Shown: positions 975-52,130, counted from the stretch's first letter. The stretch: DNA of 64,000 nt from a virus (IMGVR_UViG_3300003654_000069:1-64000), one strand, 5' to 3'. The notes: generated from the letters alone by a model not told the origin. Translations and numbers: made by a program.

Positions 975-1018
975 GAAGGGCTATCTTGCAATCTGCAGGG
1001 TAGCCCTTCTTTTTTTTT
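975..1018 (+). terminator. rho-independent terminator at the convergence point of the plus- and minus-strand modules
   Basis: A perfect 9-bp stem, GAAGGGCTA (975-983) paired with TAGCCCTTC (1001-1009), is followed by a T9 run (1010-1018). It sits between the plus-strand stop (972) and the minus-strand stop (1017-1019). Confidence 0.8.
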
Positions 1019-29922: not shown

Positions 29923-32900
29923 TTATGTTACTCCAGGATATCCATAAGCTGCAGGATTATTTCCATATGGATCATCATATTCATTAAGCTCATCTGCTCT
30001 TTGATTACCCTTTGCAGAAATTCCATATGCATTATAAACAGCTCTTATAACCCCTGGATCAGTTATCTTATTCTCACTGATATATGACCCAGCTGCATCA
30101 AGTCTACCCTCTACACCTGATTTACGAGAAGTATTAAGTCCCTTACCTTGGTTATACCTAACATAACCTGTATGAGCATCTACCTGATAGGTCGGATCAA
30201 GGAAATTCAGAGCTTGTGTTTTACCCTTATTTGTCCATCCTTGTGTGAATTGTGCCAGTAACTCCTGATTAGCCTGTCTCTTGGAATTGTCAAACTGCTG
30301 TTTAAGAATTGTAGATGAATCCCATAGGTTTTTCTTAGATTCAGCATTTATAAGAGCAAATTTGTTTCTAGTATCAGCATTACCTTGTGCAAACTGATTG
30401 GCAACTCCAACATTCATAGCATCATACCTGGAAAGAGTATCAGCTTGTTGTTTTGCAATCTCACCAAACATTCTGGATGATTGTCCACTAAAACGCTGAG
30501 GACGGCCATATATACCAGCTGCTTTAGTACCAACTTGTAATTGTTCAATATTTGCTGCTAATGCTCTTGTAGGATCATAAAACCTAGGCTCAGCTAGATC
30601 CGGATGAACTGTAGGAGCCCATGGTTGATATGCTTTTAGTCCGAGTCTTACACCAGCTGCACCAGCTATATTAGCCACATCCTGAGTCCACCAGTTACCA
30701 TAAGGACTTGGTTGCCGATACATAGGATCATATGCTCGTTCAGGACCTGTAGTAGTGGTACCTGGAGTAGTAGTACCAGGTATCTTTGGAATACCACCAG
30801 GTGTTTTAGCTGTACTAGGAGCTGAAAATGTATGTTCTCCCATAAGTGAGTCAAATCCAGTACCTTTTTGTTTTTGCCCAAACCACGAAGGATTAAGTTT
30901 ATTATATTCCTCTTGAAACCAATGTGTATCTGATTGTCCTTTAGTTTTATCTTGACCAGAAACATCTCTACCTCTATATCTAGACCCTGGCTTCCATTTT
31001 CCTATAACAGTTTTATCGGTAGGATCAAAATCAGGTCTTTGTTCATATACCCATCCTTGCCTTCCCTTAAATTCTGCTTGCTGTTGTGGTGACCAAGTTA
31101 CATCTCCATATAAATTATGGCCACCACCAGGATTCGGAGATTGCGTTTCATCTCTTTCCCAACCAACAGTAGGTTCATTTTGAACATTAACTTTATACCC
31201 TGCTTCACCTTGTTCTTTCAGCCAAGCTACTGATCCCGGGGTGTATATACTCATAGTTGGTTTACCCCCTTTTGTTCCACTAGAAGTTACTGATTTTGCA
31301 GGTATAGTCCTTACAAGCTTTCCAGAAGCATCTTTTACTTCAACCCTACCATCAGGATATAGTGTACTAGTTGTTCCATCATTATACTTTGTAACTATAC
31401 CTCCTGGCTCATATTGAGTTAGGCCTCCACCATATTTTTTTAAAAAAGGATTTGCTGTTTGTAATTGTATAGTATCACCAACTGCAGGTTGTGGAGTTAC
31501 AGTCTGTGTGGGTGTAGTAGGATAGACTACAGGAGTCATTCCAGGAAATTCAGAAGATGTAGAAGTCTTTGCAGTATCAGATAATCCCTTTGTCCAAGCT
31601 TCTATAGCCACCATTTCTTCAGGAGTTAACTTTTTAGGAATACCAGGAGTTAAGGCCCATCCTGCTGCTAATGGTAGTAAAAGTCCCCGTCCTTTATAAG
31701 CAAGGTTTGCTGTCTCCAAAAGAGCTGCTGGAGTCGCCTTTGCCATATCCTTAACATATTTTATTGTACTGGTTGTAGCATCCTTTATCGCTTTAGTAGT
31801 TTTTAATGCAATTTTTTGTGTAATAGGGTGTGTAAGTATTTTACTACCAAGTTTAAAAGCACCTACTCCAAGATACATATTAGTATTTAGTCCAAGGTTT
31901 ACTGCTTTTGCTATATAGGGACTATCTTCTAAAAATCTTCCTGGTTGTGATGCCGCATCTCCAAATAATGGTACATCTTCACCTCTTTTTGCATCACCTA
32001 TTCCATAAACTATCTGAGTAAGTAATTTAGAAGGAGCTGCCATAACATTTCCCCAAGTAAACTCACTATGTTGGTAAGGTACAGCCGCTATCATTTTTTT
32101 TATCCTCTCTTCATTAAGTTGATGTGCCTTCTGTTTCCTCTTGTCTGTTTGTATTTCTTGCTCTATATTCTCCCTTTCTTGGTAGGTAAGTGGTCTCTTT
32201 TGCTTTTCTGCTAATGCCTTTATTTTTTCACCAGGAGCATAACTTTGATCAAGACGATGAGCAGCTTTAGCAGCAGCAATATTAGTATCACTAGCAGCGA
32301 TAGCATCATGGAAAGCAGCCATAGCATCATCCTGAGCAATTCTTTGATTTTCTTTATAAGTCTCAGAACCCTCTTCCCCCACATACTCACTACTCATAAA
32401 CGCCTTATAAGTAGTTTCGTAAGCCTCTCGTCCAATCGTTTGCCGATCATAATCACTGAGTGACGTTCTAGCTTTTTCAGCTTGAACAGCTTGAGCAACA
32501 GGATCATCATCCTTAGCTTTCCACTTAATACCTGCAGCTTCACTAGCCAAAAAAGACTTACGAGCATTCCTAGCAATAATACCAGCCATATCAACAGCAT
32601 CAGCATCAGCCTTAGCCTTATCCTTCATACGAGGATTAAAAGCAACCTTATAAGCTTCAGCATAAGCATTATCATAAACAGTCTGAGCAGCACTTTTTTC
32701 TACTACACTCTTTGTTTGATGCTTAGGTAATTGCATACCATATTTAGCCAGAGATATATCTTCATAATTTATATCTTCTGTTCGTTGAAAATTATCTACA
32801 AATGAGGTACCCATAGGAATACCACCAAAGTCAAAATATCCACCACCATATCTAGATATAGTTTCCTGAGGTTGCTGTTGTTGCTGAGGTTGTTGCTGAC

Positions 32901-33993
32901 CTTGTTGAGGAAGAAGTCTCTCCTTTTTAATACCCATCATAGACATATATGGTGTAGCAACTTCTGGTATTTCTTGAGGATATGCTTTTTTAGATTCTGA
33001 GGCAAGAGCTAACATGGCCAATTTTATGTTATAATTCTTTATCATCTGCTCTGCTGTTTCTCTTTGCAAATCATCAGAATTAGGATTTGCAAGAACTGCT
33101 CTATAATAGTTTATATCATACTGCTTTGCCAGTTCTGCTGGTGTGTACTTCTTCTTTGTATCTTCAGGCTTACCGAAATATCTCAGAATAGGACCTCCAA
33201 TTTCCATCTTCTTTGTATCAGAAAAGATAAAGGTACCTTCTTGTGCTTTCAAAGGTACTCCACCATGTGTATGACGAGGACCAGTAATATTAAAATGAGC
33301 AGGTAGACCTCCCTGATTAGGAACAAACATAGTTTCTCCACCTTCTGCTTCAATATTAGGATTTTCATAATTAGGCATGATAGAACTACGAACACCAGAT
33401 GCTGAATTACCACCATTAGAACTAGGCTGTTGACGAGCATGGTCAAAAGAACCTACTCTGGTATTTCCACCATGACCATATCTGGTTAGAGCACCACCAT
33501 ATTTTCCAACTGCTGAAAAAGTACCTTGATGACCTGCATCCTTAGATAAACCAAGATTAGGATATAAATCACCACGTTCACTCAATTTCTTTGAGTTATC
33601 TGCCAGTAAGTTTCCAAATTGATCTTTAAATGCTTGTTTTGCATCAGCCTTCTGGCCAGTAAGACCATATACTCCAGCCGTAACCGAGTCTGTAATATTA
33701 ATTGCCAAATCAGAATCCCATGTTCTACCAAATATATTTTCCACCTTTACATCAGTCTGTCCTGCAGGAGTACCTGCCGGTAATGGTACTCCTGTTAATT
33801 GTGCTGCTTTTGCTGCTTCTGCTGCTTCATAATCTTTTGCTGCTTCTGCTTGTAAATCTTCTTCTTGTTGTACAGAAGTGTTAAACTTACCAACTTGACT
33901 ATTCAATTGAAACTTGGGTAAACCTGTTATCCGAACAAGCTTTCCTCCACCAGAATAGTTTGGAAGTTTTATAATTTTTACTCTTTTGACCAT
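29923..33993 (-). CDS. 1356-aa Gly/Gln/Ala-rich internal or ejection-type protein
   Basis: Long ORF with repeated YGG / LPK[FH]Q motifs, a poly-Q tract (QQGQQQPQQQQQPQ), hydrophobic segments (LLLPLAAGWALTPGI) and a GPRHTHGG motif of unknown meaning. Confidence 0.85.
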   Translation of the reverse strand: MVKRVKIIKLPNYSGGGKLVRITGLPKFQLNSQVGKFNTSVQQEEDLQAEAAKDYEAAEAAKAAQLTGVPLPAGTPAGQTDVKVENIFGRTWDSDLAINITDSVTAGVYGLTGQKADAKQAFKDQFGNLLADNSKKLSERGDLYPNLGLSKDAGHQGTFSAVGKYGGALTRYGHGGNTRVGSFDHARQQPSSNGGNSASGVRSSIMPNYENPNIEAEGGETMFVPNQGGLPAHFNITGPRHTHGGVPLKAQEGTFIFSDTKKMEIGGPILRYFGKPEDTKKKYTPAELAKQYDINYYRAVLANPNSDDLQRETAEQMIKNYNIKLAMLALASESKKAYPQEIPEVATPYMSMMGIKKERLLPQQGQQQPQQQQQPQETISRYGGGYFDFGGIPMGTSFVDNFQRTEDINYEDISLAKYGMQLPKHQTKSVVEKSAAQTVYDNAYAEAYKVAFNPRMKDKAKADADAVDMAGIIARNARKSFLASEAAGIKWKAKDDDPVAQAVQAEKARTSLSDYDRQTIGREAYETTYKAFMSSEYVGEEGSETYKENQRIAQDDAMAAFHDAIAASDTNIAAAKAAHRLDQSYAPGEKIKALAEKQKRPLTYQERENIEQEIQTDKRKQKAHQLNEERIKKMIAAVPYQHSEFTWGNVMAAPSKLLTQIVYGIGDAKRGEDVPLFGDAASQPGRFLEDSPYIAKAVNLGLNTNMYLGVGAFKLGSKILTHPITQKIALKTTKAIKDATTSTIKYVKDMAKATPAALLETANLAYKGRGLLLPLAAGWALTPGIPKKLTPEEMVAIEAWTKGLSDTAKTSTSSEFPGMTPVVYPTTPTQTVTPQPAVGDTIQLQTANPFLKKYGGGLTQYEPGGIVTKYNDGTTSTLYPDGRVEVKDASGKLVRTIPAKSVTSSGTKGGKPTMSIYTPGSVAWLKEQGEAGYKVNVQNEPTVGWERDETQSPNPGGGHNLYGDVTWSPQQQAEFKGRQGWVYEQRPDFDPTDKTVIGKWKPGSRYRGRDVSGQDKTKGQSDTHWFQEEYNKLNPSWFGQKQKGTGFDSLMGEHTFSAPSTAKTPGGIPKIPGTTTPGTTTTGPERAYDPMYRQPSPYGNWWTQDVANIAGAAGVRLGLKAYQPWAPTVHPDLAEPRFYDPTRALAANIEQLQVGTKAAGIYGRPQRFSGQSSRMFGEIAKQQADTLSRYDAMNVGVANQFAQGNADTRNKFALINAESKKNLWDSSTILKQQFDNSKRQANQELLAQFTQGWTNKGKTQALNFLDPTYQVDAHTGYVRYNQGKGLNTSRKSGVEGRLDAAGSYISENKITDPGVIRAVYNAYGISAKGNQRADELNEYDDPYGNNPAAYGYPGVT

Positions 33994-34005
33994 ATTGATT
34001 AAGTA

Positions 34006-37000
34006 TTAAACATATTCTACTTTACCACCAGCTGCAAGTATTCTTTCTATCTCGCCACCTTCAAGATATATTACCTGTCCTTTCTTGTATTTAGGAAGAG
34101 GCCTTCTACGTTTACCATAAGATCCACCATGAGCATAATTTCCTTCACTATAAGGATCATATGAAGTTTCACTCTCATCATAATATTGAGCATCAGCATC
34201 GGGAGTTCCTTGTGGTTCATGTGGTTTCCAAGAAAAAGACCTAGAAGTTTTTCCTGTTAGAGTACCTGGAGTTAATCCTAGTCTTTTCTCTTCTTTCTCC
34301 ATATACTTAATCTCTTTCGGACTTGTTGGAGGACTTGCTTTATAAAGCTCAGGATTTTCCCTCCAGTGTTTATCAGCAGCACTAATAGGACGAGCATAAG
34401 GATTTTGCATAAATTCTGCCATTTTTACCTCTTTCTCACCTGGAGGAAGTGGTGGTTGACCAAAAGGATACTCTGGTTTACCAAAATAATCTTCTTGCAC
34501 TGGTTGTCCTGTGAATCTTTGAAGATTCTCAGTAGCTGGGTCACCTGTAAGCATATTTTCAACTGGTTGTCCGATAAAATTACCCTCAGCATCATAAAGC
34601 TTAGCTTGAGTAGCATTATAAGCAGCAGTACCAGCAGCTTGAGCACCCTCAATGTCACCAGGATTAGCCTTTAGATGAGCATTACGAGCAGTATCATACT
34701 CAAAATTTTCAGGATCCACTTCACCTTCTTGTGAAATAGGAGCATTTCCATCTATGGTAGTATATCCATCAGGGTTTCTAGTATTAGCAGCAATACGAGC
34801 ATTTTCTGCAGCTTGAGTACGAATTGCCGTAGCATCATAACCAGCATCAGTAGAAGGATTATAAGTATTAGGTGCTTCTGAAACAACTGGAGTATCAAAA
34901 GGACCAGGATCTCCTTTACCAGGAAACCCGTGTTTCCATGTTTCTTGTTGGTCAGGACTCATATTATCCCAAGCTTCTACTGTAATTCCAGGATTAAGTA
35001 ACTCATCTTCTTTAGGAACTACTACAGGAGCTTCTGGTACCCCTGTATTCTTCCAACCTGATTGTCCAGCATTCTGCTGCATATCTGTTAGCCATTGATT
35101 AGCCTCATCTGCAGTAGTTGCTCTATTAAGTAAAGGATTTGTATTAGTACTTGCAGTAGTACCTGTATTAGGAGTACCTGTATTAGGAGTACCTGCATTT
35201 ACAGCAGCTGCATTTGGAGTAACTGTATTTGAAGCTGTTGTAGGTGATCCTGTTTGCCACGGATAAGCAAATGTTGCTTCTTCCGATTTAATACCTCTAC
35301 CAATTCTTCGTTTTGTCGTCTTATATGAAGTCAAATATGGATTTGTTTTCTGCATTGCTGCTAAGCGTTGCACAGGAGTCATGTCTCGGAACTGATTTCG
35401 ATTCCCAGTCCATCCGGAAAAAGGATTTCCAACACCCTGTTGCTTTCCACCAATATAGATATTTTGTTTTCTTATATATGGTTGACTAGTTGAAGGATAC
35501 CAATTACTCCAACCACCACTAACAGGATTGAAAAATCCCTGGTTATAATTTCCCTGGTGTCTTTGATTGGTTGAACCTGAGAAATCTCCTTTAGACCATT
35601 TATCCCACTGGGCCCACTGCTCATTTGTTAAAGGAGTTCTTGGTGTATTTTGATCATCCCAGTATTTTTTATAAAAAGCGGCATCTTTTACAACTGGACC
35701 TTGTGGAATCATAGTTTTACTATCTTGAGCTTTAGGAAGAGAATATCCAAATCTAGCTTGTGTATTAAGATAATCTCCCATTTTCTTATCATAACCACGT
35801 GCAAATAATTTAGTAAATGGATTTCTAATATTTGCTTTCTGGTTTATATCAGCCATATTCTGACCATACATATCAAGCATATCTTTTGATTGCTGACTAA
35901 AACCAGGTTGATTAGTATATCCAAAATTAGCTCTTGGAATCCATCCACCGTTCCTACCCTGTGCAATAGCCATATTCTGACCCATATCTTGTCCTATACC
36001 TTCATTACCCATATCCTGATAAGTAGTATCTTCTGTAGGAGGATTAATCATATTATTATACTGTGCCAACTCAGACCCCTCATCTAATAAAGCTAGAAAG
36101 TTATCTCCTCTACTTTTTGACAGTTCTGAAATTGATTCATCATTGGTACCACCAGCTCCATACTTAGTACCACCGCATCCAAAACAAGGAGCTCCTCCTC
36201 TTTTAAGTTTACCTTCTCGTTCTGGATTCATTTCCAGTTCGTGTTTTTTCAATAACTTTATCAGTCTTGTTTGACTTTTCTTAGTAGCTGTTTTTGGATA
36301 GTCCATATGCATTCCATGGAGTTTCATTATTTCATCATAAGAGCCTCCCATACCAAAGTACTGAGGACCTGGGCTTCCTCCAAAGTTAGATATCTCACTC
36401 ATAGTAGGTTGCTGAGGATAAGCCGAAAAAGTTGGAAATCCACCATTAGAAAATTGCTTACCAGTATTAGGATCAATTTTAAACGGAGGAGTTATGTTAT
36501 TTATACTGTCTCTCTGTGATTTATTAATTATTGAATTAATATAATCTTGATGGAGCATATCTTTCATCTGTTTCTTATACATATCCATTGTAGGACTAAG
36601 CCCTGACTGACCTGGAATAAAACCAGGAGGAAATTCAGATATACCTGTCTCAGGATTCATTACAGCATCAGGTGCTCCTTGTGGTCCTACTATACTTTGA
36701 ATCTGATGTTTAGGAAGCATATGTCTAGGCATACCACCATTTCGAAAACTACCTTGTTCCTGTGGTTGTCCTTGTGGTTGTCCTTGTGGTTGTCCTTGTG
36801 GTTGTCCTTGTGCCTGTGCCATTACTTCTTCAATCATTGGTTCAACTTGCTCTTGAGGCATTCCTAATTGAACAAATATTTGAAGAATTATCTCAGGTGG
36901 CATTTCAGATTGTAACAATTGCATTATAACATCTTGTGGTTGTGCATTTGGTTGCTTTAACATTTGTTGTACCTGTTTCATCACTTGTTGCATCTGTTGT

Positions 37001-37332
37001 TCTTGTCCTTGCCCCTGTTCTTGCTGTACTTGTCCTGTTTCCTGATATTTTGGCATTCCTCCATAAGCAAAGCTACCACCCTGATAAGGAGCTGGAACAT
37101 TTTGATAAGCCGGAGAAAAGAATCCTCTTTCTGATTGAATCTGAGGATACATCTTTGGTGTTCCACCCATAGCCATTATATAATCTTGTTCTGTACCATA
37201 CTTGGCATAAAACTGTTGTTCAGTCCCACCAAATTTAGCGAGAATGAGTTCTTTTTGTGATTGGGGTTTTCTTTTAGGCATAATTTTAGGTATAATATTT
37301 TGTAAAGTTACGAATTTAATTGATCTAACCAA
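34006..37332 (-). CDS. 1108-aa low-complexity (Q/P/G/N-rich) internal or ejection-type protein
   Basis: Long ORF. The start may instead be the MPKRKP Met at 37281, which would remove the 25-nt overlap with the upstream gene. It contains (QGQP)4 and several GG...LPK[YHA]Q motifs. Confidence 0.85.
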   Translation of the reverse strand: MVRSIKFVTLQNIIPKIMPKRKPQSQKELILAKFGGTEQQFYAKYGTEQDYIMAMGGTPKMYPQIQSERGFFSPAYQNVPAPYQGGSFAYGGMPKYQETGQVQQEQGQGQEQQMQQVMKQVQQMLKQPNAQPQDVIMQLLQSEMPPEIILQIFVQLGMPQEQVEPMIEEVMAQAQGQPQGQPQGQPQGQPQEQGSFRNGGMPRHMLPKHQIQSIVGPQGAPDAVMNPETGISEFPPGFIPGQSGLSPTMDMYKKQMKDMLHQDYINSIINKSQRDSINNITPPFKIDPNTGKQFSNGGFPTFSAYPQQPTMSEISNFGGSPGPQYFGMGGSYDEIMKLHGMHMDYPKTATKKSQTRLIKLLKKHELEMNPEREGKLKRGGAPCFGCGGTKYGAGGTNDESISELSKSRGDNFLALLDEGSELAQYNNMINPPTEDTTYQDMGNEGIGQDMGQNMAIAQGRNGGWIPRANFGYTNQPGFSQQSKDMLDMYGQNMADINQKANIRNPFTKLFARGYDKKMGDYLNTQARFGYSLPKAQDSKTMIPQGPVVKDAAFYKKYWDDQNTPRTPLTNEQWAQWDKWSKGDFSGSTNQRHQGNYNQGFFNPVSGGWSNWYPSTSQPYIRKQNIYIGGKQQGVGNPFSGWTGNRNQFRDMTPVQRLAAMQKTNPYLTSYKTTKRRIGRGIKSEEATFAYPWQTGSPTTASNTVTPNAAAVNAGTPNTGTPNTGTTASTNTNPLLNRATTADEANQWLTDMQQNAGQSGWKNTGVPEAPVVVPKEDELLNPGITVEAWDNMSPDQQETWKHGFPGKGDPGPFDTPVVSEAPNTYNPSTDAGYDATAIRTQAAENARIAANTRNPDGYTTIDGNAPISQEGEVDPENFEYDTARNAHLKANPGDIEGAQAAGTAAYNATQAKLYDAEGNFIGQPVENMLTGDPATENLQRFTGQPVQEDYFGKPEYPFGQPPLPPGEKEVKMAEFMQNPYARPISAADKHWRENPELYKASPPTSPKEIKYMEKEEKRLGLTPGTLTGKTSRSFSWKPHEPQGTPDADAQYYDESETSYDPYSEGNYAHGGSYGKRRRPLPKYKKGQVIYLEGGEIERILAAGGKVEYV
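36761..36808 (-). repeat. perfect 12-nt x 4 tandem repeat (TGTGGTTGTCCT on the plus strand) encoding (QGQP)4
   Basis: Read directly from the sequence. The repeat is in frame, so copy-number slippage would preserve the reading frame. Confidence 0.95.
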
Positions 37333-40300
37333 CGATTGTGTTGAAATTTAACAGGTAAATCTAACGAACCACCATATTTCTTTTTCTTTAATTTAGCTAT
37401 TTTACTATCAGGAATATATTTCTTTGTTTTTGGATCAAAATAGAATCTATCATAAATTTTAAATGGGTAACCAGCTTTATGCATTAATGATGATTGTATA
37501 TAAGATACTGCTTTATCAGCAGAAGAATGCTCCCACCATTTTTCAGTATAGTGTTCAGGGGAAAAATCCCAAGCATCTGAAATAGACATATATGGTAAAT
37601 TCCTCTCATGATCCCAACCCATACCAATTTTATGTGATGCAATATTTATACTTAACATATCTGATAATATACTGTTGTGGGTATCTGGTAAAAATATTGG
37701 TTTTTTTGTTTTTATAAAATTATTATATATTTTACTTGTCTCTTCTTCATTTGGAGCTACTGTATCATTATCAACTCGTCCAATTAGGATATTATCAATT
37801 TGTCTAGATAGTTGATCATTTCTCCATTCTTTATTATCATTATCTGATACTTCTAAAATTTTATCAAAATTACTTTTAATACTATATGAAGGTAAAAATG
37901 TTAAATAATCATCTATAGGTGTATATATTGATTTTGGATATAATGGTTTTTCTGAAAAATATTGATCTAGCATTGTTACTTTATCCTCATCTCCCTTAAT
38001 AAGTACACCACTTTCAAATGTCCTCATATTACTACCTGTATAATCTCCTTTTGGCACTGTAGGATCTATAAGAGCTGCCATATCATCGTATGATCTAGAT
38101 GCCATCGGACTTTGCCCAGCAATTTCTTTTGCTTTCTTTTTTATATAATCACCAAGAATTGGTACTTTATGCATCCAGGGATTTTCATATACCATATCTT
38201 GTTTCCAATCACCAGTTGTTAAACCTTTTATAATTGGTGGATTATAGTATGCATATTCTTCAGATGTAGGAATAGGAGTTACTCCATAGGTAGCTGCAGT
38301 AGGAAGAGGTACTTCAGGAGTAGTTTTCATAGAACTAGGATCCCATTTATATTCTCCTTTAGTTTGAAATTCAGGTAATTCATCTAGCCAATTTGTTGAA
38401 ATAGAACCTCCATACTTTTTCTTAACACCATGTTCTTGTATAAACTTTTTTATTCCTTCAACCTTCTCTGCAGTTAATTGTTGCTGTGTTCCTGGTTTCC
38501 ATTCTAATACTAGATCACTGTATTCAAGTTTTCCTCTCTGCCTCTTGACATTATTAACATAACCAATATCATTCTTAGGAAGATAATAATTAACAAATTC
38601 GGAACTAAGTGCTTTACCAGGAGCATTATGCATAAGTGTTGTTAAATCAATAATCTGATCCTCTGTATAGGTAGGATATCTCTCCTTCATCCTATGATAG
38701 TTATCAATCGCTAGATTCATGGATGATACAAACTGATTTTCCGGAGTGTTAAAAGTATTACCATGATGCCTTCCTCTCTTGGATAAATCTTTCTGTTGAA
38801 ACATACCTTTACTTTTGGGACTATTATAAAATATCCACTCTCTGGTCTTACTATCTAATATATGATTCTTCTTAGAATCAAGGTATTTTCTAAATTTTTC
38901 AAGGCTATCATGGTTATTTTGAACACCATCTGCATTATCATTCCAATAAGCCTGAATCCAATTATCATCCTCTTTTCCGAATACCTCTTTCTTAATCCAT
39001 TTTACTGTATCAGAAGCTGCTGCTTTTCTGGCAGTTGGTAAAGCAGAATCAGGTACTAATGATGTTAAAAAACCCTCATCTGTTCCAAACTTAGATTCCT
39101 GACCTGCAATTCCTATCATATTATGAAAAAGCTTATCTAGCACAGCTGGTGGAAGATTAGATCCTTTTCCTAACTTCTCATAATTCTTATTATAATATGT
39201 TAGTAATAAGTTAGCTTCAGGGAATAATATTGCCTTCTTTATTTTAGGACTATGAATATTAAACCTATCTTCCGGAGTTGTATCTTTAGGAGATCCGCTT
39301 GTAACATTTTTAATAGCAGATTTTTTTCCCTTGTAGAGATGAGCATAATCATTCTTTCCATCCATAATGGCCTTCTCAGCTTTTGTTATTTCTGTTCTTA
39401 TATAAACCTGTTCTGGATCATATCGGTTTACAAACAAACCATTATAACCATAACCAAGATAATCTCCACTCTGCGGGGTATTATAAAGCTCTATCAATTT
39501 TTGCTCTGATACAGTCTCAGTTTCCCATATGTCCATACCCGCATTATCACCAATTCTATACCGGGTAGGTCTACCATCATCGAATATGATTTTCTCCAGA
39601 ATCACTTTTGCATGAGTTGGAACCTTGTTATTTTTATTTTGTGGTGTTATTGCATAATCAAGTCTACCTACTTTAGATACCCGTTCTGCTGACATTGTCC
39701 ATTGAAGTATATCTCCAACTTCAAAACCCTCATCATTAGGATTTATGTCATAGTAACCCTCTTTTCCTAACTGACCATGAAATTTTTGATTTCCTGTATA
39801 ATTCTCAGTGAAATCTTTATCTGTTATTTGTTCAATTGCAGTACATACTCCGTTTATACAGTTCATGTGCGGATATTTCTTTTTAAAATCACTTGATATA
39901 TATGGACTCTTCTTATTAATATCTTGCCAATTATCCGTAATTGCTTTCCTGTAATCCAGAGCTTGTTGACTAGGAGGCCTTACAGTATTTACATCATCTG
40001 TACTGAGTGGTTCTTGATCAACTTCAGATAAAGAACCACCCGTGTCATATCTATCTAACCAATTTGAAGTTGATCCACCATACATAAATTTAGTGGTTTT
40101 ATGAGCTCGTTTTTTAAATTTATAATTACCCGTAATTATATCTTGACCAAGTTCTTCAGAATTGCTTATAGCATTCTCTTTTGTAGTGGGATGCCACCAG
40201 CCTTCTGTAACTAATCCATACCTATTAGATTTTGTATCATAATAATATTGTTTTTTGGGGTCACTTTTAGATTTAATTACTGGTAGCTCTTGTGATATCT

Positions 40301-42044
40301 CTTGTGGTATCTTTTGTGATAGTTCTTGAAGTGGTTCTTGTTCAATTTTTGGAATAATTGTTTCTTTCGGAGTTTCTTTAACTACAAGTGAGTTATTATA
40401 ATCTTCTCTTGCTTGTCTTGTGAGATCTCCTACATCACCATCAATTCTTCCGTGATAGTGCCCTAATTTTCGTAATTTTCGTTGCTCTTCCATTATCACT
40501 AATTGTTTTTGTGTAGGTTTAGCTTGATATATTACTTTATCAACTGGTTTTTTCCATATAGCAAATGTTTCTGCCGCAGTGAAACCTGGATAATTACTTA
40601 TACCTGTTGTAATAGGTTGAAAATTTTTAGGATGGACCTGAGGATAGATATTTGGTAAATTTCGATTACTAGTAAAAACAACATTGGGCCATCTACTTTT
40701 GATCTCTATCATCTTATCAACTCCACGATTAAAATAACTTAAACTATCTCCATAAGCTATTAATCCTGGGTCTTTTGGATCTGTTACATAGATAGTTTTA
40801 CCCTTTTGAGCTTTAGGTAGATTATTTAACCAACCAGGATTTGCGTATATATTACCTATAATACCACCTTGTGCTTTTTTAGGAATTGTTTGCCTACGAT
40901 AATATTCATTATAATCAATTTTTTCATCATCTGTCAATTCTATATCCTTCTTTACAAAAGGACTCATAATATTTGTTGAAAACATATTACGTATACCCGG
41001 ACCCCAAACAGATTTATAATCACTGCTTATTGCACCATATTCATCTCTTATAGAACTGCCATCTGGATTTTTACCATAAAAATCATTAGAATTAGTATAT
41101 CTGTTTTTAAAAAACCAATCTTTTGCATTATTAATTAATAACTGTTGCTCATCTTCTGATAAATTTTTAACTTCTTCATACATTTTATTTATTTCTGAAT
41201 CATTTGAATTTTTTCTTCCTGTCCATCCCCAACTCTCATCCCAATCTTCTGGTTTATATGTTTTATATTTTCTAATATACTCCCCAACAATATAGTTTTT
41301 TGGTTTAATCGTTGGTTTCATAGTTTTCCAATCCCAACCTGCTCTCCATAACCAATCTCCAACTTGAGTTCTATTAGCAGCACTTCCATATTCAGGAATT
41401 TTATCTACAATACTCAAATAGTCTTGCTGACGACCAGCATAACTTGGAATAGGTTTTCCACCTGATGCTCCCATTGTTGTTTCAAAACCAATTACTCTAT
41501 TTGATGCAGAGTTAGTAGTATCATTTACACTTACTTGACTTGTGATTTGATATTTAGGTAAATCTAACCACTTTTTATTTCCACCATATTTAAATTTCTT
41601 TTTTATACCTATAGAAAACGTAGGATCAAATTTTTCTGTAATAGAACCTATTCCTGCATTTATATTAAGGTCTCCAATGTTATAACCATAATTAGCTCCC
41701 ATCCAATGGCTATTTCCAAATATTTTGAGATTATCAGATACCCGATTATTATTTGAATGAAATAAAGGTGAATTAATTTTTGGAGCTATAGGTAACTCAT
41801 CTAACCAACCTTCTTTTCCGATTGGAATTTCAAGTACAGGACCTTTGAATTTATACTTTTTATCAGGCTGCATTAACTTCTTCTTACCATCTCTACCAAT
41901 TCCTAATACTGGACCAAGAACATTATGCATACTTATATCACCAGAGGGAATAATATTATAATCATTGAATCTATCGGGAGAATCAGCTCTATATCCTGTT
42001 AGGGATAATCCTGTTTTTGCTTTATATAACTTCCTCTTACTCAT
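37308..42044 (-). CDS. 1578-aa cell-wall-degrading ejection/tail protein (PG-binding + CHAP/NlpC-like + SLT domains)
   Basis: Long ORF. Three peptidoglycan-related motif sets are listed as separate features. Five YGG...WLD..LP..Q punctuation motifs fall between the domains. Confidence 0.85.
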   Translation of the reverse strand: MSKRKLYKAKTGLSLTGYRADSPDRFNDYNIIPSGDISMHNVLGPVLGIGRDGKKKLMQPDKKYKFKGPVLEIPIGKEGWLDELPIAPKINSPLFHSNNNRVSDNLKIFGNSHWMGANYGYNIGDLNINAGIGSITEKFDPTFSIGIKKKFKYGGNKKWLDLPKYQITSQVSVNDTTNSASNRVIGFETTMGASGGKPIPSYAGRQQDYLSIVDKIPEYGSAANRTQVGDWLWRAGWDWKTMKPTIKPKNYIVGEYIRKYKTYKPEDWDESWGWTGRKNSNDSEINKMYEEVKNLSEDEQQLLINNAKDWFFKNRYTNSNDFYGKNPDGSSIRDEYGAISSDYKSVWGPGIRNMFSTNIMSPFVKKDIELTDDEKIDYNEYYRRQTIPKKAQGGIIGNIYANPGWLNNLPKAQKGKTIYVTDPKDPGLIAYGDSLSYFNRGVDKMIEIKSRWPNVVFTSNRNLPNIYPQVHPKNFQPITTGISNYPGFTAAETFAIWKKPVDKVIYQAKPTQKQLVIMEEQRKLRKLGHYHGRIDGDVGDLTRQAREDYNNSLVVKETPKETIIPKIEQEPLQELSQKIPQEISQELPVIKSKSDPKKQYYYDTKSNRYGLVTEGWWHPTTKENAISNSEELGQDIITGNYKFKKRAHKTTKFMYGGSTSNWLDRYDTGGSLSEVDQEPLSTDDVNTVRPPSQQALDYRKAITDNWQDINKKSPYISSDFKKKYPHMNCINGVCTAIEQITDKDFTENYTGNQKFHGQLGKEGYYDINPNDEGFEVGDILQWTMSAERVSKVGRLDYAITPQNKNNKVPTHAKVILEKIIFDDGRPTRYRIGDNAGMDIWETETVSEQKLIELYNTPQSGDYLGYGYNGLFVNRYDPEQVYIRTEITKAEKAIMDGKNDYAHLYKGKKSAIKNVTSGSPKDTTPEDRFNIHSPKIKKAILFPEANLLLTYYNKNYEKLGKGSNLPPAVLDKLFHNMIGIAGQESKFGTDEGFLTSLVPDSALPTARKAAASDTVKWIKKEVFGKEDDNWIQAYWNDNADGVQNNHDSLEKFRKYLDSKKNHILDSKTREWIFYNSPKSKGMFQQKDLSKRGRHHGNTFNTPENQFVSSMNLAIDNYHRMKERYPTYTEDQIIDLTTLMHNAPGKALSSEFVNYYLPKNDIGYVNNVKRQRGKLEYSDLVLEWKPGTQQQLTAEKVEGIKKFIQEHGVKKKYGGSISTNWLDELPEFQTKGEYKWDPSSMKTTPEVPLPTAATYGVTPIPTSEEYAYYNPPIIKGLTTGDWKQDMVYENPWMHKVPILGDYIKKKAKEIAGQSPMASRSYDDMAALIDPTVPKGDYTGSNMRTFESGVLIKGDEDKVTMLDQYFSEKPLYPKSIYTPIDDYLTFLPSYSIKSNFDKILEVSDNDNKEWRNDQLSRQIDNILIGRVDNDTVAPNEEETSKIYNNFIKTKKPIFLPDTHNSILSDMLSINIASHKIGMGWDHERNLPYMSISDAWDFSPEHYTEKWWEHSSADKAVSYIQSSLMHKAGYPFKIYDRFYFDPKTKKYIPDSKIAKLKKKKYGGSLDLPVKFQHNRWLDQLNS
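38565..39167 (-). other. SLT-type lytic transglycosylase domain
   Basis: IAGQESKFG (E983 at 39096-39098), GMFQQ (38793-38807) and MHNAPGKA (38611-38633) correspond to the ES, GLMQ and AYNAG motifs of family-1 lytic transglycosylases. Confidence 0.7.
39525..39902 (-). other. CHAP/NlpC-P60-like cysteine peptidase or amidase
   Basis: Candidate nucleophile in HMNCINGVC (C729 at 39858-39860, C734 at 39843-39845), then EVGDILQW, then PTHAKVIL (H811 at 39612-39614), then IGDNAG. Confidence 0.45.
40380..40493 (-). other. peptidoglycan-binding (PG_binding_1-like) repeat
   Basis: QRKLRKLGHYHGRIDGDVGDLTRQAREDYN matches the LGYY-x-G-x-IDG-x-FG-x-T-x-x-A pattern. D535-G-D537 is at nt 40434-40442. Confidence 0.55.
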
Positions 42045-45000
42045 TATCGCACAGATATTAACTCTTTAGTATTTATAAGTTTTACATACATCTTAATGTT
42101 ACCTGAAATATTTTTATAGAACATTACATGATTAGTATAATGTCTGAACTTCTTTCTTTGAAGTGGGGACTTACCGTAAAACAGATTAGCAGGATTGAGT
42201 ATCCGGATATATCCATTAGATTCTGTTTGCCAGATTTTTCTTTGCACCGTAGGGAAAGTAAACTCTCCTCTGTCTTCTGTTATATCCCAGAACTGATTAA
42301 TACGATACTTTTGTTCAACCTTTGCAGCAAGAATATCAATCGATGTAGCATTAACAATTGGATACTGAAGTGTCTGGACAATATCATTCTTTGGGACAAC
42401 ATTCAATATAAGAATCCCTGATACCTGTTCAGAATTATAAACTACGGCATGATCAAAATTTGCATCAAGCACATGAAATGCATCTGTACCAATCTCATCA
42501 TATATATAACACTCAAGTAGATACTCAATACTTCTTACTGTTGTTACCTGTTGCCCTGTCGATGCTATGTAATCTATTTCAAAAGGATAGTCTATACCAT
42601 AATAATTACAATAACTATTGGTAAGTACACCATGTCTCCAGATCTGACCCTGATTAGCAGGTGTATGTACAGTAGTCAGGAAATCATTCTTACTTGGAAT
42701 AGACAAGTCTGGATGCCAGTCATGAAAACCGAGCCATTGTCCATCTTTGGATTTTATATCATAACTAAGAGTCCATGAGGCATCATCAAAATACTGAGGA
42801 TCTCCCAGAGTTATAGGAAAACCGAGTGTAGCATGTACAAATCCTTCGTAAGTAGAATCAAGTATAACCTGAGCACCTATTAGTCCAGGTTTTCGCTTAA
42901 AGTCTTTCTTGGTAAAGTAGACGATACCATTCTTATTATCAAAAATAGACTGACATCCTACTCCGGCAACAGGATTATTAGTAAGACTAAAGTCAGGAAA
43001 ATCTTCAAGAATCTTAAATGGAAGATATCTTGTCATCCACCATTTCATACCCAAATTGGATATCTCTCTGAGTCCACCAGCATAATTAAATATCTTACCT
43101 TGATTCGCACTCATCCAGAAGAGACCTGATGGAGTATTAATTACACCAAGACTGTCTTGACAGGAACCATATTCATATGAAGAATCAGCATTTATAATAT
43201 TCTGAGGCTCTCTGTCAAACAATGCTCCATCACCAACAGTAATTTTTACACCAGCATCTGTTTTAAGTTCATCAACACCCTGGAATATCTGTGGACTAGC
43301 TGTATCAAAAAGTAACACTGCACCAGTCATACCTAAAGGCTTAATTGATATAAGATGATGCTTGAAATCTTTGTCATTATTTACAAGAAAGACTCTCCAG
43401 AAATCCTTTACTGACTCAAGGGTTTGTGGAAGTGAGTAAATAAGCTTGTTTGGATAAAAGACAAAACAGGTTTCGGCAATAGTAGGATTATACTCTCTCT
43501 TCTGGAGAGAGCCCCAAGGGAAAAAATTATTGAATACCCTTGAGATACTCAGTGAGGTATCATACTTAACAAAATTACCCGACTTTATAATCTTTGGATC
43601 AAATAATGTCCTTACATCTGAAAATCTATTAGGATCATAATATCTTTGCTCCATAGGATCACCCCAATCTCTTAATTCTGTATTGATCACTGACTCTACA
43701 TAGAAATCTCTTACTGCACTATTAAATGTATAAAAATATCTATTTTTCATTCTGAAAAGTCCTGGACTGCCTATACTCCCTTGATTTAAATTTGCTCCAT
43801 CTAATCGAGCTCTATCATTTGGAAGAGGGATACTTACAAAAGGTGGAGCAGTTAAATCTATCGTACCACCTGTAATGAACTCATTTATATCATAGTCAGT
43901 AAAATCTGCCCAATATCTTGGAAAGTTAAGCATGTATCTCAACTTATAATTCCATTCATACCCGTCAGGTTGATCATACAGCCAGTCCCAGAAGTAAAAG
44001 AAAGTATTCTTCTCTGTATAACGACAAACATAAGTATCTCCATTGAAAACAATAGCAGTAGAATAAGGTGCAGCAAGACCAGTTGTGTATACAGGACAGG
44101 TAGAAGCAGGAATTTGAACAATACCCTCTAACTGACCATACTGATTTCTCATTCTTTTCTTCATGGCAGCATATTGTGAACATGCTGTTGTATTAAATTC
44201 TTCCTTGGCATCATCTGGTTTAAATGAGACTAGAGTACCAACAGGAAGTCCAAGGTCACCACGTACACATGAACCAATTGTTTGGACAGAATTATCAATA
44301 GTAAGAGGTCTTGGGATATTAGAAGCAAGTGTCTGAAGTACAACAGTCTTACTCCTATATAAATTATTAATTTTAGTCTGAGCTAACGGATTAACATTAA
44401 AGTCCTGAAACTGATCATCTACATATATGGCATCTGCTATAATATGTCGGAAGTTTCCAGCATTTACATTTCCTATAGCATAATTATCCATAAATCCATG
44501 AGAAGTATATCTCATAGCATATTGAGTAAATGGAATAAGAGCTTTTATCAATTCCATGACTGCTTCTGTACTCTTACTCCAATAATTAGAAAACATTACT
44601 AAACTATTAGTAGTCTTCATAAATTTTGGAAGATATCCAAAATCAGACTGATCAGTTTCAATATTTTCTTGTCCACCACTTACACCAGGTGTAGAAAGTG
44701 CAACTACTGCAGCATTTTTATAAGTAGTTACAAGAAGAGGCTCATCTCCAAATAATGATGCTACTAATGATAGAAGAGTTGCACCTCCAGTGGGCTCTAC
44801 CTCTTCTTGATCAAAAGTATTTCGGTATGTTATTAATGCAGCAGCTCCAGCTGCTCCTGAACCTGCTGGAGAAGGTGCAAATCCTGAAGATCCCGGTCCT
44901 GTTAATATCATCCCAATATTACTAACATAAGGTGATATATAACTAGTTCTTCTCTGACCTTTTATAGCCATTATAGCATTTCCAATTCCAAGTAATGCTG

Positions 45001-52126: not shown

Positions 52127-52130
52127 TTTA

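What the first reader, a model, noticed from the sequence alone, without database searches (positions are those of the whole stretch)
29923..42044. Recurrent YGG...(WLD)..LPK[YFHA]Q motif punctuates three consecutive large proteins like polyprotein linkers
The motif is seen directly in all three proteins.
- 1578-aa protein: FKYGGNKKWLDLPKYQ (151-166, nt 41547-41594); GWLNNLPKAQ (405-413, nt 40806-40832); MYGGSTSNWLDRYDTGG (W662 at nt 40059-40061); KKYGGSISTNWLDELPEFQ (W1219-Q1227, nt 38364-38390); and the C-terminal KKYGGSLDLPVKFQHNRWLDQLNS.
- 1108-aa protein: AYGGMPKYQ (nt 37042-37056); RNGGMPRHMLPKHQ (nt 36703-36717); FGYSLPKAQ; and the C-terminal RRPLPKYKKGQ.
- 1356-aa protein: the N-terminal YSGGGKLVRITGLPKFQ (LPKFQ at nt 33907-33921); KYGMQLPKHQ (417-426, nt 32716-32745); KKYGGGLTQYEPGG; and RYGGGYFDFGG.

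In the 1578-aa protein the copies fall at domain boundaries, between an N-terminal segment, the PG-binding segment, the CHAP+SLT segment and a C-terminal segment. The protein's C-terminal end carries the fifth copy. More than ten copies of a specific short linear motif across three adjacent genes is hard to attribute to chance. Possible roles are maturation cleavage sites (perhaps cut by the HExxH modules or a prohead protease), capsid or portal docking tags for packaged cargo, or cell-envelope anchoring repeats. I know of no description of this motif.
Basis: seen in the sequence. Interest (0 to 1): 0.8.

Follow-up and report, generated by a model that had tools for sequence, protein, structure and literature searches.

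The report
Linker tag in crAss-phage cargo proteins
Three large proteins that this crAss-like phage probably packs into its particle and injects into the host share a short, conserved peptide tag at their ends and between their domains; the tag recurs in hundreds of related uncultured phages, I found no description of it, and its job (docking handle or cutting site) is still open.

Summary
All coordinates check. LPK[YFHA]Q occurs 6 times in the three proteins (4,042 aa), 0 times in the other 16,497 aa of the window, and 0.009 times per composition-preserving shuffle.

The window is the virion module of a divergent crAss-like phage (portal, MCP, ring proteins, muzzle). The three proteins occupy the cargo (ejection) protein slot after the muzzle gene.

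The motif is a local variant of a family-wide element, [YFN]GG-[WFY]-L-x-[KR]-[YA]-Q-x-GG. It is present in 77 of 119 homologues of the 1356-aa protein and in many modular homologues of the 1578-aa protein.

It lies in predicted disordered linkers (AlphaFold pLDDT below 50). It sits at the edges of independently shuffled homology modules and at the extreme N- and C-termini of many relatives. It is conserved at protein level, not DNA level.

The best reading is a glycine-hinged docking or threading tag on beads-on-a-string cargo proteins. It is weakened because no protease sits in the portal–scaffold–MCP block, complete tags persist at natural termini, and ΦcrAss001 gp45 keeps an FGGWLNTQGG copy intact in the cryo-EM model.

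No function is shown. No prior description was found.

The parts
37308..42044 (-). A1578, first gene after the muzzle gene: a modular cargo (ejection) protein of 1578 aa. Modules are about 10-82, 160-397 and 655-1200 (hydrolase-like), plus a C-terminal part.
   Evidence: ORF. Separate homology modules. Invariant C729/H811/N834 and E983 in alignment A4. Weak PG_binding_1 hit at about 522-546.
34006..37332 (-). B1108, second cargo protein (TTG start; overlaps the A1578 3' end by 25 nt). It is Q/P/G-rich. The module at residues about 92-205 is shared with C1-like proteins of relatives.
   Evidence: Its N-terminus MVRSIKFVTL resembles the C1356 N-terminus MVKRVKIIKL.
29923..33993 (-). C1356, third cargo protein and positional counterpart of crassvirus cargo protein C1. 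It has a conserved domain at 200-365, a beta-repeat at 858-897 and a conserved C-terminal domain from about 1100.
41766..41810 (-). Motif copy A0 (aa 79-93, GWLDELPIAPKINS). Degenerate; lies at the end of module 1.
41547..41594 (-). Motif copy A1 (aa 151-166, FKYGGNKKWLDLPKYQ).
   Evidence: Module 2 of homologues starts at about 160-172.
40806..40838 (-). Motif copy A2 (aa 403-413, PGWLNNLPKAQ).
   Evidence: Module 2 ends at about 391-397.
40035..40085 (-). Motif copy A3 (aa 654-670, MYGGSTSNWLDRYDTGG). D stands in place of Q.
   Evidence: Module 3 starts at about 654-700.
38364..38420 (-). Motif copy A4 (aa 1209-1227, KKYGGSISTNWLDELPEFQ).
   Evidence: Module 3 ends at about 1170-1218.
37311..37382 (-). 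Motif copy A5 at the C-terminus (aa 1555-1578, KKYGGSLDLPVKFQHNRWLDQLNS).
37042..37071 (-). Motif copy B1 (aa 88-97, FAYGGMPKYQ).
36703..36744 (-). Motif copy B2 (aa 197-210, RNGGMPRHMLPKHQ).
35725..35754 (-). Motif copy B3 (aa 527-536, RFGYSLPKAQ).
34075..34107 (-). Motif copy B4 (aa 1076-1086, RRPLPKYKKGQ). Degenerate; it precedes the C-terminal mini-domain YLEGGEIERILAAGGKVEYV.
   Evidence: The P0002 C-terminus has the same form, RMLPKYRKG.
33907..33957 (-). Motif copy C1 in the N-terminal leader (aa 13-29, YSGGGKLVRITGLPKFQ). The family consensus N-terminus is MxxKVRIKKLPKAxTG.
   Evidence: Lbo-JY46 has MKIRIIGLPKAQ.
33466..33504 (-). Motif copy C2, GG...aromatic...GG variant (aa 164-176, KYGGALTRYGHGG).
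   Evidence: pLDDT about 32.
32821..32853 (-). Motif copy C3, variant (aa 381-391, RYGGGYFDFGG). hhalign pairs it with gp45 YGG561.
32716..32745 (-). Motif copy C4 (aa 417-426, KYGMQLPKHQ).
31399..31440 (-). Motif copy C5, variant (aa 852-865, KKYGGGLTQYEPGG), at the N-terminal edge of the beta-repeat domain.
42044..47158 (-). Muzzle protein (1704 aa). It is the context marker that defines the cargo-gene slot.
   Evidence: Pfam crAss_MUZ, E 1.5e-22. PHROG virion structural protein.
26970..29843 (-). 957-aa protein, positional counterpart of cargo protein C2. It carries no core motif.
   Evidence: Its N-terminus is conserved in L006. There is no PF25712 hit.

Best explanation
The motif is a conserved short linear tag of the virion-packaged, ejected cargo proteins of a large, mostly uncultured clade of crAss-like phages.

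Its compact form is [YFN]-G-G-[WFY]-L-x-[KR]-[YA]-Q-x-G-G. It has a small aromatic/Leu/Lys core held between two diglycine hinges. The window's phage uses an expanded dialect: (K)K-[YF]-GG, then 0-8 residues, then WLD, then LPK-[YFHA]-Q-x-x-[SG]-x-V.

The tag lies in intrinsically disordered linkers that separate independently folding, evolutionarily shuffled modules. It also lies at the very N- and C-termini. The proteins are therefore beads on a string.

Inferred mechanism: the tags stay uncleaved and act as multivalent docking or threading handles. They would bind a phage-encoded site inside the particle (portal wing, tail-barrel rings, capsid interior) or bind each other. This would recruit the early-exiting cargo proteins A, B and C1 into the particle and hold them in an extended, ordered state. 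They could then be fed N-to-C through the portal/tail channel, with the GG hinges allowing module-by-module passage.

Shown: the motif is real, specific to the cargo slot, conserved, placed in linkers and at termini, and associated with module shuffling. Inferred: presence in the virion, binding to a partner, and absence of cleavage.
For: Context:
- The window carries a portal C-terminal part (phrog_6547, E 8e-59), Crass_capsid, CrAss_Ring_1/2 and crAss_MUZ.
- A, B and C follow the muzzle gene. In ΦcrAss001 the same slot holds cargo proteins gp45 and gp46, followed by the RNAP-associated giants (PMC10172136).

Specificity:
- The core occurs 6 times in A/B/C and 0 times in the other 16.5 kaa of the window.
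- The motif is likewise concentrated in the cargo-slot ORFs of L008 and in one large virion-module ORF of L015.

Conservation:
- 77 of 119 homologues of C1356 carry GG...[KR][AY]Q.
- The family consensus has an N-terminal KVRIKKLPKAxTG and an internal MxxGGxxRLxRAQxGM.
- Compact copies such as NGGWLDKYQDGG and YGGWLNEYQDGG occur in A-type homologues.
- Codons differ between the window's copies.

Linker position:
- pLDDT is below 50 at all C1356 copies, next to domains with pLDDT above 90.
- Homology-module ends lie a median of 5.5 aa from a motif, against 69 aa for random positions.
- 47 of 55 core hits lie outside aligned modules.
- The B1108 module bracketed by two copies sits inside C1-like proteins of other phages, and is tandemly triplicated with its motif in P0081, P0088 and P0096.

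Tag-like behaviour:
- Of 83 compact copies, 31 sit at the extreme C-terminus and 16 at the extreme N-terminus (MGWLKKYQxGG).
- Both ends of the same protein often carry a tag.
- C-terminal tags follow at least 21 unrelated sequences.

Structural precedent:
- In ΦcrAss001 gp45 the cryo-EM-ordered portal-bound segment 425-552 begins with AFGGWLNTQGG.
- The tail-barrel-bound helix 214-245 begins 4 residues after AYGG.
- YGG561 follows the portal-bound domain (PMC10172136).
- Steigviridae C1 proteins conserve these [YF]GG sites and end in GG[YF]L[TN] tails.

Concept: a beads-on-a-string architecture has been proposed to allow passage of N4 vRNAP through a channel of about 35 Å (PMC13434306).
Against: - No binding partner is identified, and no complex could be modelled with these tools.
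- The giant RNAP-associated proteins (2534, 4038 and 2078 aa) and the C2-like protein lack the tag. It cannot be a universal packaging signal.
- Relatives with the same virion plan have no compact tag in their cargo genes: Cellulophaga phi4:1 and csAssE-Sib.
- The link between C1356 and the structurally characterised gp45 is weak. BLASTP is not significant. There is no PF25725 hit. hhalign gives E 1.1e-3 at only 20% probability. Foldseek of a confident domain model finds no gp45 chain.
- Glutamine is strongly preferred in internal and N-terminal copies (38 of 52 internal) but not in C-terminal copies (1 of 27). The tag model does not predict this asymmetry. A Q-specific protease would.
- A test for lineage-specific co-evolution of copies was not significant (within 0.203 versus between 0.186; permutation p 0.13).
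Confidence: 0.4

Rival explanations
1. The copies are maturation cleavage sites. A phage protease cuts after the Q (P1 = Q/E) or at the GG, and chops A, B and C into their modules. The three genes would then behave as polyproteins, like the multi-site processing of T4 internal proteins and phiKZ inner-body proteins.
For: - The motif is in accessible disordered linkers exactly at module borders.
- Q is strongly preferred in copies that are followed by more chain (38 of 52 internal; all 14 N-terminal) but relaxed to K/N at natural C-termini.
- 23 of 31 C-terminal copies end exactly at that residue, as if natural ends mimic processed ends.
- A1578 module 3 has an invariant Cys/His/Asn set that could belong to a papain-like enzyme.
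- HExxH modules exist in the neighbouring 2078-aa and 4038-aa proteins.
- Iyer et al. 2017 proposed autoprocessing of polyvalent phage proteins by zincins (PMC5512222).
Against: - No protease family hit appears in the window. The portal-to-MCP interval holds only a charged, helical, scaffold-like protein.
- The ΦcrAss001 structural paper mentions no protease or cleavage.
- Its gp45 model range 425-552 runs through FGGWLNTQGG uncut.
- X is E/D/G/N or another residue in 14 of 52 internal copies, and D in the window's WLDRYD.
- The distance between GG and the core is variable.
- Full tags sit 1-3 residues from natural N-termini and at natural C-termini, which serves no purpose for a pure cleavage site.
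- Only 2 of 267 proteins end in GG.
Confidence: 0.25
2. The motif has no specific partner. It is a passive hinge or junction element. The diglycines give flexibility for module-by-module unfolding and refolding, the aromatic core is a weak 'sticker', and the element persists because domain shuffling happens at these junctions.
For: - GG pairs and disorder.
- Adjacent Q/P/G-rich low-complexity sequence in B and C.
- Modules are exchanged between genes together with their flanking motif.
- There is no lineage-specific homogenisation of copies.
Against: - Position-specific conservation of W/F/Y, L, K/R, Y/A and Q across proteins that are otherwise unalignable is more than a hinge needs.
- Codon divergence argues against a DNA-level recombination signal.
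- The strong enrichment at chain termini is not expected for a hinge.
Confidence: 0.18
3. The copies bind a host envelope component (peptidoglycan, membrane interface). They would anchor the extended ejected proteins while these build the trans-envelope conduit.
For: - The tag is restricted to the proteins expected to act in the envelope. A1578 has a weak PG_binding_1 hit and hydrolase-like conserved residues. Lbo-JY46 and phi4:1 have transglycosylase or lysozyme domains in the same gene slot.
- It is absent from the cytoplasm-bound RNAP giants.
- Trp/Tyr/Lys are typical of sugar-binding and membrane-interface residues (general knowledge).
Against: - No match to any known wall-binding repeat family.
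- Copies are single and hundreds of residues apart, not tandem arrays.
- The one structurally seen copy (gp45) is inside the capsid on the portal (PMC10172136).
Confidence: 0.1

Closest known systems
ΦcrAss001 cargo protein 1 (gp45; Pfam PF25725 crAss_CARG1; PDB 7QOG/7QOI/7QOJ/7QOL/8CKB)
   Same: - It occupies the gene slot after the muzzle gene.
- It is a long, partly disordered protein with short ordered segments docked on the portal and tail rings.
- It carries five [AF][YF]GG sites, one of them a compact FGGWLNTQGG.
- It has a basic N-terminal leader with (L/M)P...GG.
- Relatives end in a basic GG[YF]L[TN] tail.
   Different: - There is no significant sequence match and no Foldseek match between C1356 and gp45. 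hhalign is only suggestive.
- Gut crassvirus C1 lacks the LPK[YA]Q / WLDKYQ half of the tag.
- The window has two extra tag-bearing proteins (A and B) upstream.
Cargo-targeting peptides: T4 capsid-targeting sequence of internal proteins; encapsulin cargo-loading peptides (recalled from general knowledge, not tested here)
   Same: They are short peptides at a terminus or on a flexible Gly-rich tether. They are found only on proteins that end up inside an HK97-fold shell.
   Different: - Those tags occur once per protein, and their receptor is known.
- Here there are up to 5-6 copies per protein, many internal.
- The receptor is unknown, and not all presumed cargo carries the tag.
Multi-site morphogenetic processing (T4 gp21 L/I-x-E; phiKZ gp175 S/A/G-x-E; recalled from general knowledge)
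   Same: A short recurring motif in packaged proteins, placed at domain borders, with an acidic/amide residue at the would-be P1.
   Different: No cognate protease was found. P1 is not invariant. Complete motifs occur at natural termini. The spacing is variable.
Polyvalent proteins of phages and conjugative elements (Iyer et al. 2017, PMC5512222)
   Same: - They are giant modular proteins delivered with the DNA, and their domains are shuffled between elements.
- One A-type homologue carries ART-PolyVal.
- The window's 2078-aa protein has a sub-threshold ART-PolyVal hit.
   Different: That work defines domains and proposes zincin autoprocessing. In the passages returned by the term search of its main text it names no linker motif. 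A, B and C themselves contain none of its signature domains.
Beads-on-a-string ejection proteins of N4-like phages (PMC13434306)
   Same: Loosely connected domains have been proposed to pass one by one through a tail/ejectosome channel of about 35 Å.
   Different: The abstract of that paper describes no conserved linker peptide (the full text was not read). The proteins are unrelated.

Membership tests
Crassvirus cargo protein 1 (C1, gp45, PF25725) - applied to C1356 | The gene lies downstream of the muzzle gene and upstream of C2 and the RNAP-associated giants. | tested here: met
   Gene order is muzzle, A, B, C1356, 957 aa, 2534, 4038, 2078 aa. The ΦcrAss001 order is gp44-gp50.
Crassvirus cargo protein 1 (C1, gp45, PF25725) - applied to C1356 | The protein matches the crAss_CARG1 HMM. 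| tested here: not met
   C1356 gives no Pfam hit at E<=0.01. Four family relatives (P0012, P0085, P0004, L005/L006 C-like) give none at E<=1. gp45 itself scores 2.3e-66.
Crassvirus cargo protein 1 (C1, gp45, PF25725) - applied to C1356 | Profile-profile similarity to Steigviridae C1 proteins. | tested here: inconclusive
   hhalign E 1.1e-3, probability 20%, with C1356 179-388 aligned to gp45 389-566. An MSA against the single sequence gives E 0.008.
Crassvirus cargo protein 1 (C1, gp45, PF25725) - applied to C1356 | The fold of the portal-bound domain matches gp45 425-552 in PDB 7QOG. | tested here: not met
   The domain model has pLDDT above 95, yet Foldseek against the PDB gives a best E of 1.8 and no gp45 chain. 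BFVD instead hits a Cellulophaga phi4:1 structural protein at E 9.8e-5.
Viral maturation-protease cleavage sites | A recurrent short motif in exposed linkers at domain borders. | tested here: met
Viral maturation-protease cleavage sites | An invariant P1 (and P1') residue. | tested here: inconclusive
   Q occurs in 38 of 52 internal compact copies and E/D/G/N or others in 14. C-terminal copies have K/N. The window has one D (WLDRYD) and one K (LPKYK).
Viral maturation-protease cleavage sites | A cognate protease is encoded by the phage. | tested here: inconclusive
   None was found in the 64-kb window by Pfam or PHROGs. The protein between the portal and MCP genes is scaffold-like. The rest of the genome is not available.
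Viral maturation-protease cleavage sites | Neo-termini at the motif in virion proteins. | not testable with these tools
   This needs virion mass spectrometry.
Cargo-targeting / loading peptides | A short peptide on a flexible tether, at termini or in linkers. | tested here: met
   There are GG hinges on both sides. 47 of 83 compact copies are at chain ends. pLDDT is below 50.
Cargo-targeting / loading peptides | Present on all packaged proteins and only on them. | tested here: not met
   The tag is confined to A, B and C. It is absent from the C2-like protein and the three giant proteins presumed to be packaged too.
Cargo-targeting / loading peptides | Binds a defined site on the shell, portal or tail lumen, and is sufficient for loading. 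| not testable with these tools
   No multimer modelling or experiment was available.
Polyvalent proteins (Iyer 2017) | Multi-domain proteins with shuffled effector domains, delivered with the DNA. | tested here: inconclusive
   Module shuffling is shown. Signature domains are absent from A, B and C. ART-PolyVal appears only in one homologue and, below threshold, in the 2078-aa neighbour.
Cell-wall-binding repeats (CW_binding_1, LysM, SH3b, GW) | Matches a repeat HMM, usually in tandem arrays. | tested here: not met
   No Pfam hit on whole proteins or on excised motif peptides. Copies are isolated, not tandem.

The most novel reading that the evidence does not exclude
The tag is an address-and-order code for virion cargo in tailed phages. 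It would be a portable, glycine-hinged peptide ((G)WLxKY(Q), or LPK[YA]Q in this phage) that, through multivalent binding to the portal, the tail lumen or other tags, decides which proteins are loaded and how they are lined up for ejection. This would be the phage counterpart of encapsulin cargo-loading peptides, and it could be used to load foreign proteins into crAss-like particles. A variant of the same reading is that the tags act as stickers that condense the cargo into the DNA-free 'cargo zone' seen in ΦcrAss001.
Probability: 0.3. Interest if true: 0.85.

Novelty: new variant of a known kind. Interest (0 to 1): 0.62.

Why it matters
How crAss-like phages select, store and eject megadaltons of protein cargo is an open question raised by the ΦcrAss001 structure. 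A sequence-defined tag that marks the early-exiting cargo proteins, their module borders and their termini gives a concrete handle on that question. It predicts where to look for neo-termini or bound peptides in maps and proteomes. It lets cargo genes be recognised in uncultured phage genomes that have no detectable homology: more than 388 C-type and more than 600 A-type relatives, none matched in GenBank phages. If it is a docking tag, it could be used to engineer what these particles deliver.

Tried and rejected
- tblastn of A1578 and C1356 against GenBank phages found no match. The viral-contig scans with A1578 and with the muzzle protein found nothing.
- Pfam, PHROGs and NCBIfam gave nothing on A, B or C beyond a weak PG_binding_1 hit. 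A profile of A1578 module 3 against the PDB and Pfam recognised no enzyme family.
- The third homologue search, on gp45, returned only sequences at least 96% identical and was of no use.
- I tried to show that C1356 is C1. BLASTP was negative. Foldseek of the 1200-aa model and of the domain-only model against the PDB was negative for gp45. Only hhalign was suggestive. I therefore treat C1356 as a positional counterpart of C1, not as a member of the family.
- A concerted-evolution test (within-phage versus between-phage similarity of copies) was not significant, p 0.13. Orthologous copies keep position-specific flavours instead.
- The DNA-repeat or recombination-signal idea is rejected, because the codons differ.
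- The GG-cleavage (adenain/PLpro-like) idea is disfavoured. Only 2 of 267 proteins end in GG, and natural C-termini extend through the core.
- A Pfam scan of excised motif peptides found no model. The C-terminal mini-domain gives only sub-threshold DUF7210 and SutA-RBD hits.
- I tried to recover the rest of the genome. The portal fragment is not on record, and the MCP lies on a contig of only 5.8 kb.
- Literature string searches for WLDKYQ, LPKYQ, LPKAQ and similar returned only unrelated papers.
Full report
**1. What the window is**

All genes lie on the minus strand. Reading in the direction of transcription, the order is as follows.
- The C-terminal part of a portal protein, 62238-63962, cut by the window end (phrog_6547, E 8e-59).
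- A charged, helical, scaffold-like 399-aa protein with no family or PDB match.
- The crassvirus major capsid protein (PF23898, E 2.6e-31).
- Small structural proteins, including three collagen-like ones.
- Tail ring proteins (CrAss_Ring_2 and CrAss_Ring_1).
- The 1704-aa muzzle protein (crAss_MUZ, E 1.5e-22).
- The three proteins of the finding: A1578, B1108 and C1356.
- A 957-aa protein, then giants of 2534, 4038 and 2078 aa.

In ΦcrAss001 the genes after the muzzle gp44 are cargo proteins gp45 (C1) and gp46 (C2), followed by the RNA-polymerase-associated gp47, gp49 and gp50. All of these were detected in virions and are thought to be ejected (PMC10172136; gene map). A, B and C therefore occupy the cargo (ejection) protein slot of a divergent crAss-like phage. 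The nearest database phages share only about 25% identity in the muzzle protein.

**2. The observation**

Counts in the three proteins (4,042 aa) versus the other 22 ORFs (16,497 aa), with composition-preserving shuffles:
- LPK[YFHA]Q: 6 versus 0. Shuffles give 0.009 on average and never reach 6 (0 of 5000).
- [KR].?[YF]GG: 10 versus 1.
- WLD: 5 versus 2.

The codons of the copies differ, so what is conserved is the peptide, not a DNA repeat.

Two further copies exist: A1578 79-93 and C1356 164-176. A second flavour, YGG followed by 3-8 residues, an aromatic residue, 1-3 residues and GG, occurs three times in the three proteins and nowhere else in the window.

**3. Conservation**

A1578 has almost no close relatives.

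C1356 has more than 388 homologues in metagenomes and none detectable by tblastn in GenBank phages.
- A loose pattern, GG within 12 residues upstream of [KRE][YFHAW]Q, hits 77 of 119 of these homologues.
- The recurrent forms are MMRYGGMRRLRRAQEGMQQP, AYGGSLDRYQTKGEVK, YGGYLPKAQDG and FIYGGGDDPSIPELTKAQ.
- The family consensus begins MxxKVRIKKLPKAxTG, with V5 and P11 at least 90% conserved.
- The same N-terminal form is present in Leptolyngbya phage Lbo-JY46 (MKIRIIGLPKAQ).

An exhaustive HMMER scan with A1578 residues 1-1200 found 606 proteins.
- They match separate pieces of A1578: about 10-82, 160-397 and 655-1200. In the targets these pieces sit at varied positions.
- Many of these proteins carry a compact form of the motif, such as NGGWLDKYQDGG, YGGWLNEYQDGG or GGFLPKYQNG.
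- A position table from 65 instances gives [Y/M/N]-G-G-[W/F/Y]-L-[K/P/N/D]-[K/R/E]-[A/Y]-Q-x-G-[G/M].

The window's LPK[YFHA]Q / WLD version is thus an expanded local dialect of a widespread element.

Genomic contexts of relatives are crAss-like. P0319 follows ring and muzzle genes. P0262 lies next to Crass_capsid and Ring_3_4. L005 and L006 repeat the A-B-C order.

The motif is missing from the cargo genes of Cellulophaga phi4:1 and csAssE-Sib.

**4. Where the motif sits**

- On A1578, the ends of homologous stretches fall a median of 5.5 aa from a motif copy, against 69 aa for random positions. 66% lie within 20 aa, against 23% expected.
- In the homologues, 47 of 55 core hits lie outside aligned modules. 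Five of the eight counted inside lie within 6 residues of an alignment edge; the other three are LMKRAQ hits about 160-195 residues inside the hydrolase-like module.
- The B1108 module at about 92-205 is bracketed by copies at 88-97 and 197-210. In most relatives this module is part of the C1-like protein, directly after MMRYGGMRRLRRAQEGMQQP. It is tandemly triplicated with its motif in P0081, P0088 and P0096.
- AlphaFold2 with a 91-sequence alignment gives confident domains in C1356 at 200-360 (pLDDT 94-98), 858-900 and beyond 1100. All five motif copies lie in segments below pLDDT 50 that flank these domains. The shorter construct confirms this.

**5. Termini**

There are 83 compact copies in 267 proteins.
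- 31 lie within six residues of the C-terminus, although only 0.6% of positions lie that close to a C-terminus. 23 of these end exactly one residue after the Y/F/H.
- 16 lie at the very N-terminus, as MGWL[KN]KYQxGG.
- Many proteins carry a tag at both ends.
- C-terminal tags follow at least 21 unrelated sequences.
- The residue at the Q position is Q in 38 of 52 internal copies and in all 14 N-terminal copies. In C-terminal copies it is K or N, and Q only once in 27.
- Only 2 of 267 proteins end in GG.

In the window, A1578 ends with ...KKYGGSLDLPVKFQHNRWLDQLNS, and C1356 begins with a doubled leader that ends in LPKFQ.

**6. Link to the solved crassvirus structure**

ΦcrAss001 gp45 has five [AF][YF]GG sites, one of them compact (AFGGWLNTQGG at 425-436).

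According to PMC10172136:
- The portal-bound ordered segment is 425-552. It starts with that copy and ends 9 residues before AYGG561.
- The helix bound to tail rings R1 and R2 is 214-245. It starts 4 residues after AYGG208.

Five other Steigviridae C1 proteins were examined alongside gp45. Most of the six conserve the [YF]GG site before the tail-barrel helix. The [YF]GG site after the portal-bound domain is kept in three (ΦcrAss001, cr126_1, IAS). Three of the relatives end in basic GG[YF]L[TN] tails.

That paper discusses no motif, protease or cleavage.

I could not prove that C1356 is a C1 homologue. BLASTP is not significant. PF25725 does not match. hhalign of the two families gives E 1.1e-3 at 20% probability, although it pairs C1356 YGG382 with gp45 YGG561. 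Foldseek of the confident domain finds no gp45 chain. Foldseek against BFVD does match the second post-muzzle 'structural protein' of Cellulophaga phi4:1 (E 9.8e-5).

**7. Interpretation**

The firmly supported part is this. The motif is a conserved, disordered, glycine-hinged short linear motif. It is specific to the post-muzzle cargo proteins of a large environmental crAss-like clade. It marks module junctions and chain ends of beads-on-a-string proteins.

For the mechanism I favour an uncleaved docking or threading tag (confidence 0.4). The reasons are:
- Complete tags are kept at natural N- and C-termini and at both ends of the same protein.
- The one copy seen in a structure is intact and sits at the portal interface.
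- No protease is found where one is expected.
- The would-be P1 residue and the spacing are not strict.

The cleavage model (0.25) remains alive mainly because of the Q asymmetry between internal and C-terminal copies. A passive hinge or junction (0.18) and envelope binding (0.1) are less likely.

**8. Novelty**

No Pfam model covers the motif. No paper in the library contains the motif strings in a phage context. The passages returned by term searches of the crassvirus structural paper and the polyvalent-protein paper describe no such linker motif. The abstract of the N4 ejection-protein paper does not either.

I rate it a new variant of a known kind: modular, ejected phage proteins with a previously unnoticed, family-wide linker and terminal tag.

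Noticed in passing
window 62238-63962 (- strand), runs off the window end: The 574-aa ORF is the C-terminal two-thirds of a portal protein (phrog_6547, E 8e-59, profile positions 316-824 of 827). The true start lies beyond base 64000.
   Followed up: partly
window 60933-62132 (-): The 399-aa protein between the portal and MCP genes is very charged and reads as helical by composition. It has no Pfam, PHROG or PDB match. It is probably the scaffolding protein. No prohead protease sits in this classical position.
   Followed up: partly
window 1017-7253, 7250-19366, 19366-26970 (-): Three giant ORFs (2078, 4038 and 2534 aa) lie downstream of the cargo genes. HExxH motifs occur at residue 432 of the 2078-aa protein and residue 802 of the 4038-aa protein. 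The 2078-aa protein also has a sub-threshold ART-PolyVal hit (E 4e-4). They are presumably virion RNAP-associated or polyvalent proteins. None carries the tag.
   Followed up: partly
window 31303-31419 (C1356 aa 859-897): A five-strand beta-repeat (YNDGTTSTLYPDGRVEVKDASGKLV...) matches the CPAP/TCP10 G-box by sequence (E 9e-4) and by fold (probability 1.0, about 40 columns). This is an unusual domain for a phage protein.
   Followed up: partly
window 32899-33393 (C1356 aa 201-365): A very well predicted domain (pLDDT above 95) is conserved at about 55% identity in more than 100 metagenomic proteins. It has no Pfam model and no PDB fold match. Its only structural neighbours are crAss-like phage virion proteins (phi4:1, Fpv3).
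   Followed up: partly
window 34006-34068 (B1108 C-terminus); L005 7336-9813 and L008 12601-14670 C-termini: A C-terminal mini-domain recurs, of the form GG-x-[IV]-x-[ML][ST]-x-EEI-xx-L-xx-G-x-x-[VI]-E-[YI]-[LV]. Examples are YLEGGEIERILAAGGKVEYV, MSDEEIKRFLRAGGQIEYLD and LSDAEIANLKRMGYQFDIL. It gives only sub-threshold hits to DUF7210 and SutA-RBD.
   Followed up: partly
window 37308-37332: B1108 starts with TTG and overlaps the last 25 nt of A1578. Its N-terminus (MVRSIKFVTLQN) mirrors that of C1356 (MVKRVKIIKLPN), which supports this start and a shared basic/hydrophobic leader.
   Followed up: no
window 51593-53154 (-): Three consecutive small proteins (177, 170 and 173 aa) each carry a short collagen-like Gly-X-Y stretch. 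Only the first reaches the Pfam Collagen cutoff (28.1 bits versus 27.2). They may be head or tail fibre components.
   Followed up: no
A1578 aa 10-82 (window 41799-42017): A small N-terminal module (TGYRADSPDRFNDYNIIPSGDISMHNV...PVLEIP) is the most widespread piece of A1578. It matches about 80 of the top representative proteins at N-terminal, internal or C-terminal positions, nearly always next to a tag. Its function is unknown.
   Followed up: partly
L001 (phage csAssE-Sib) 82-657 and 750-2147: The epsilon crAss-like phage used for comparison carries an annotated diversity-generating retroelement (VR/TR/IMH plus reverse transcriptase) on a tail-fibre gene, and two TnpB genes inside its structural module.
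   Followed up: no
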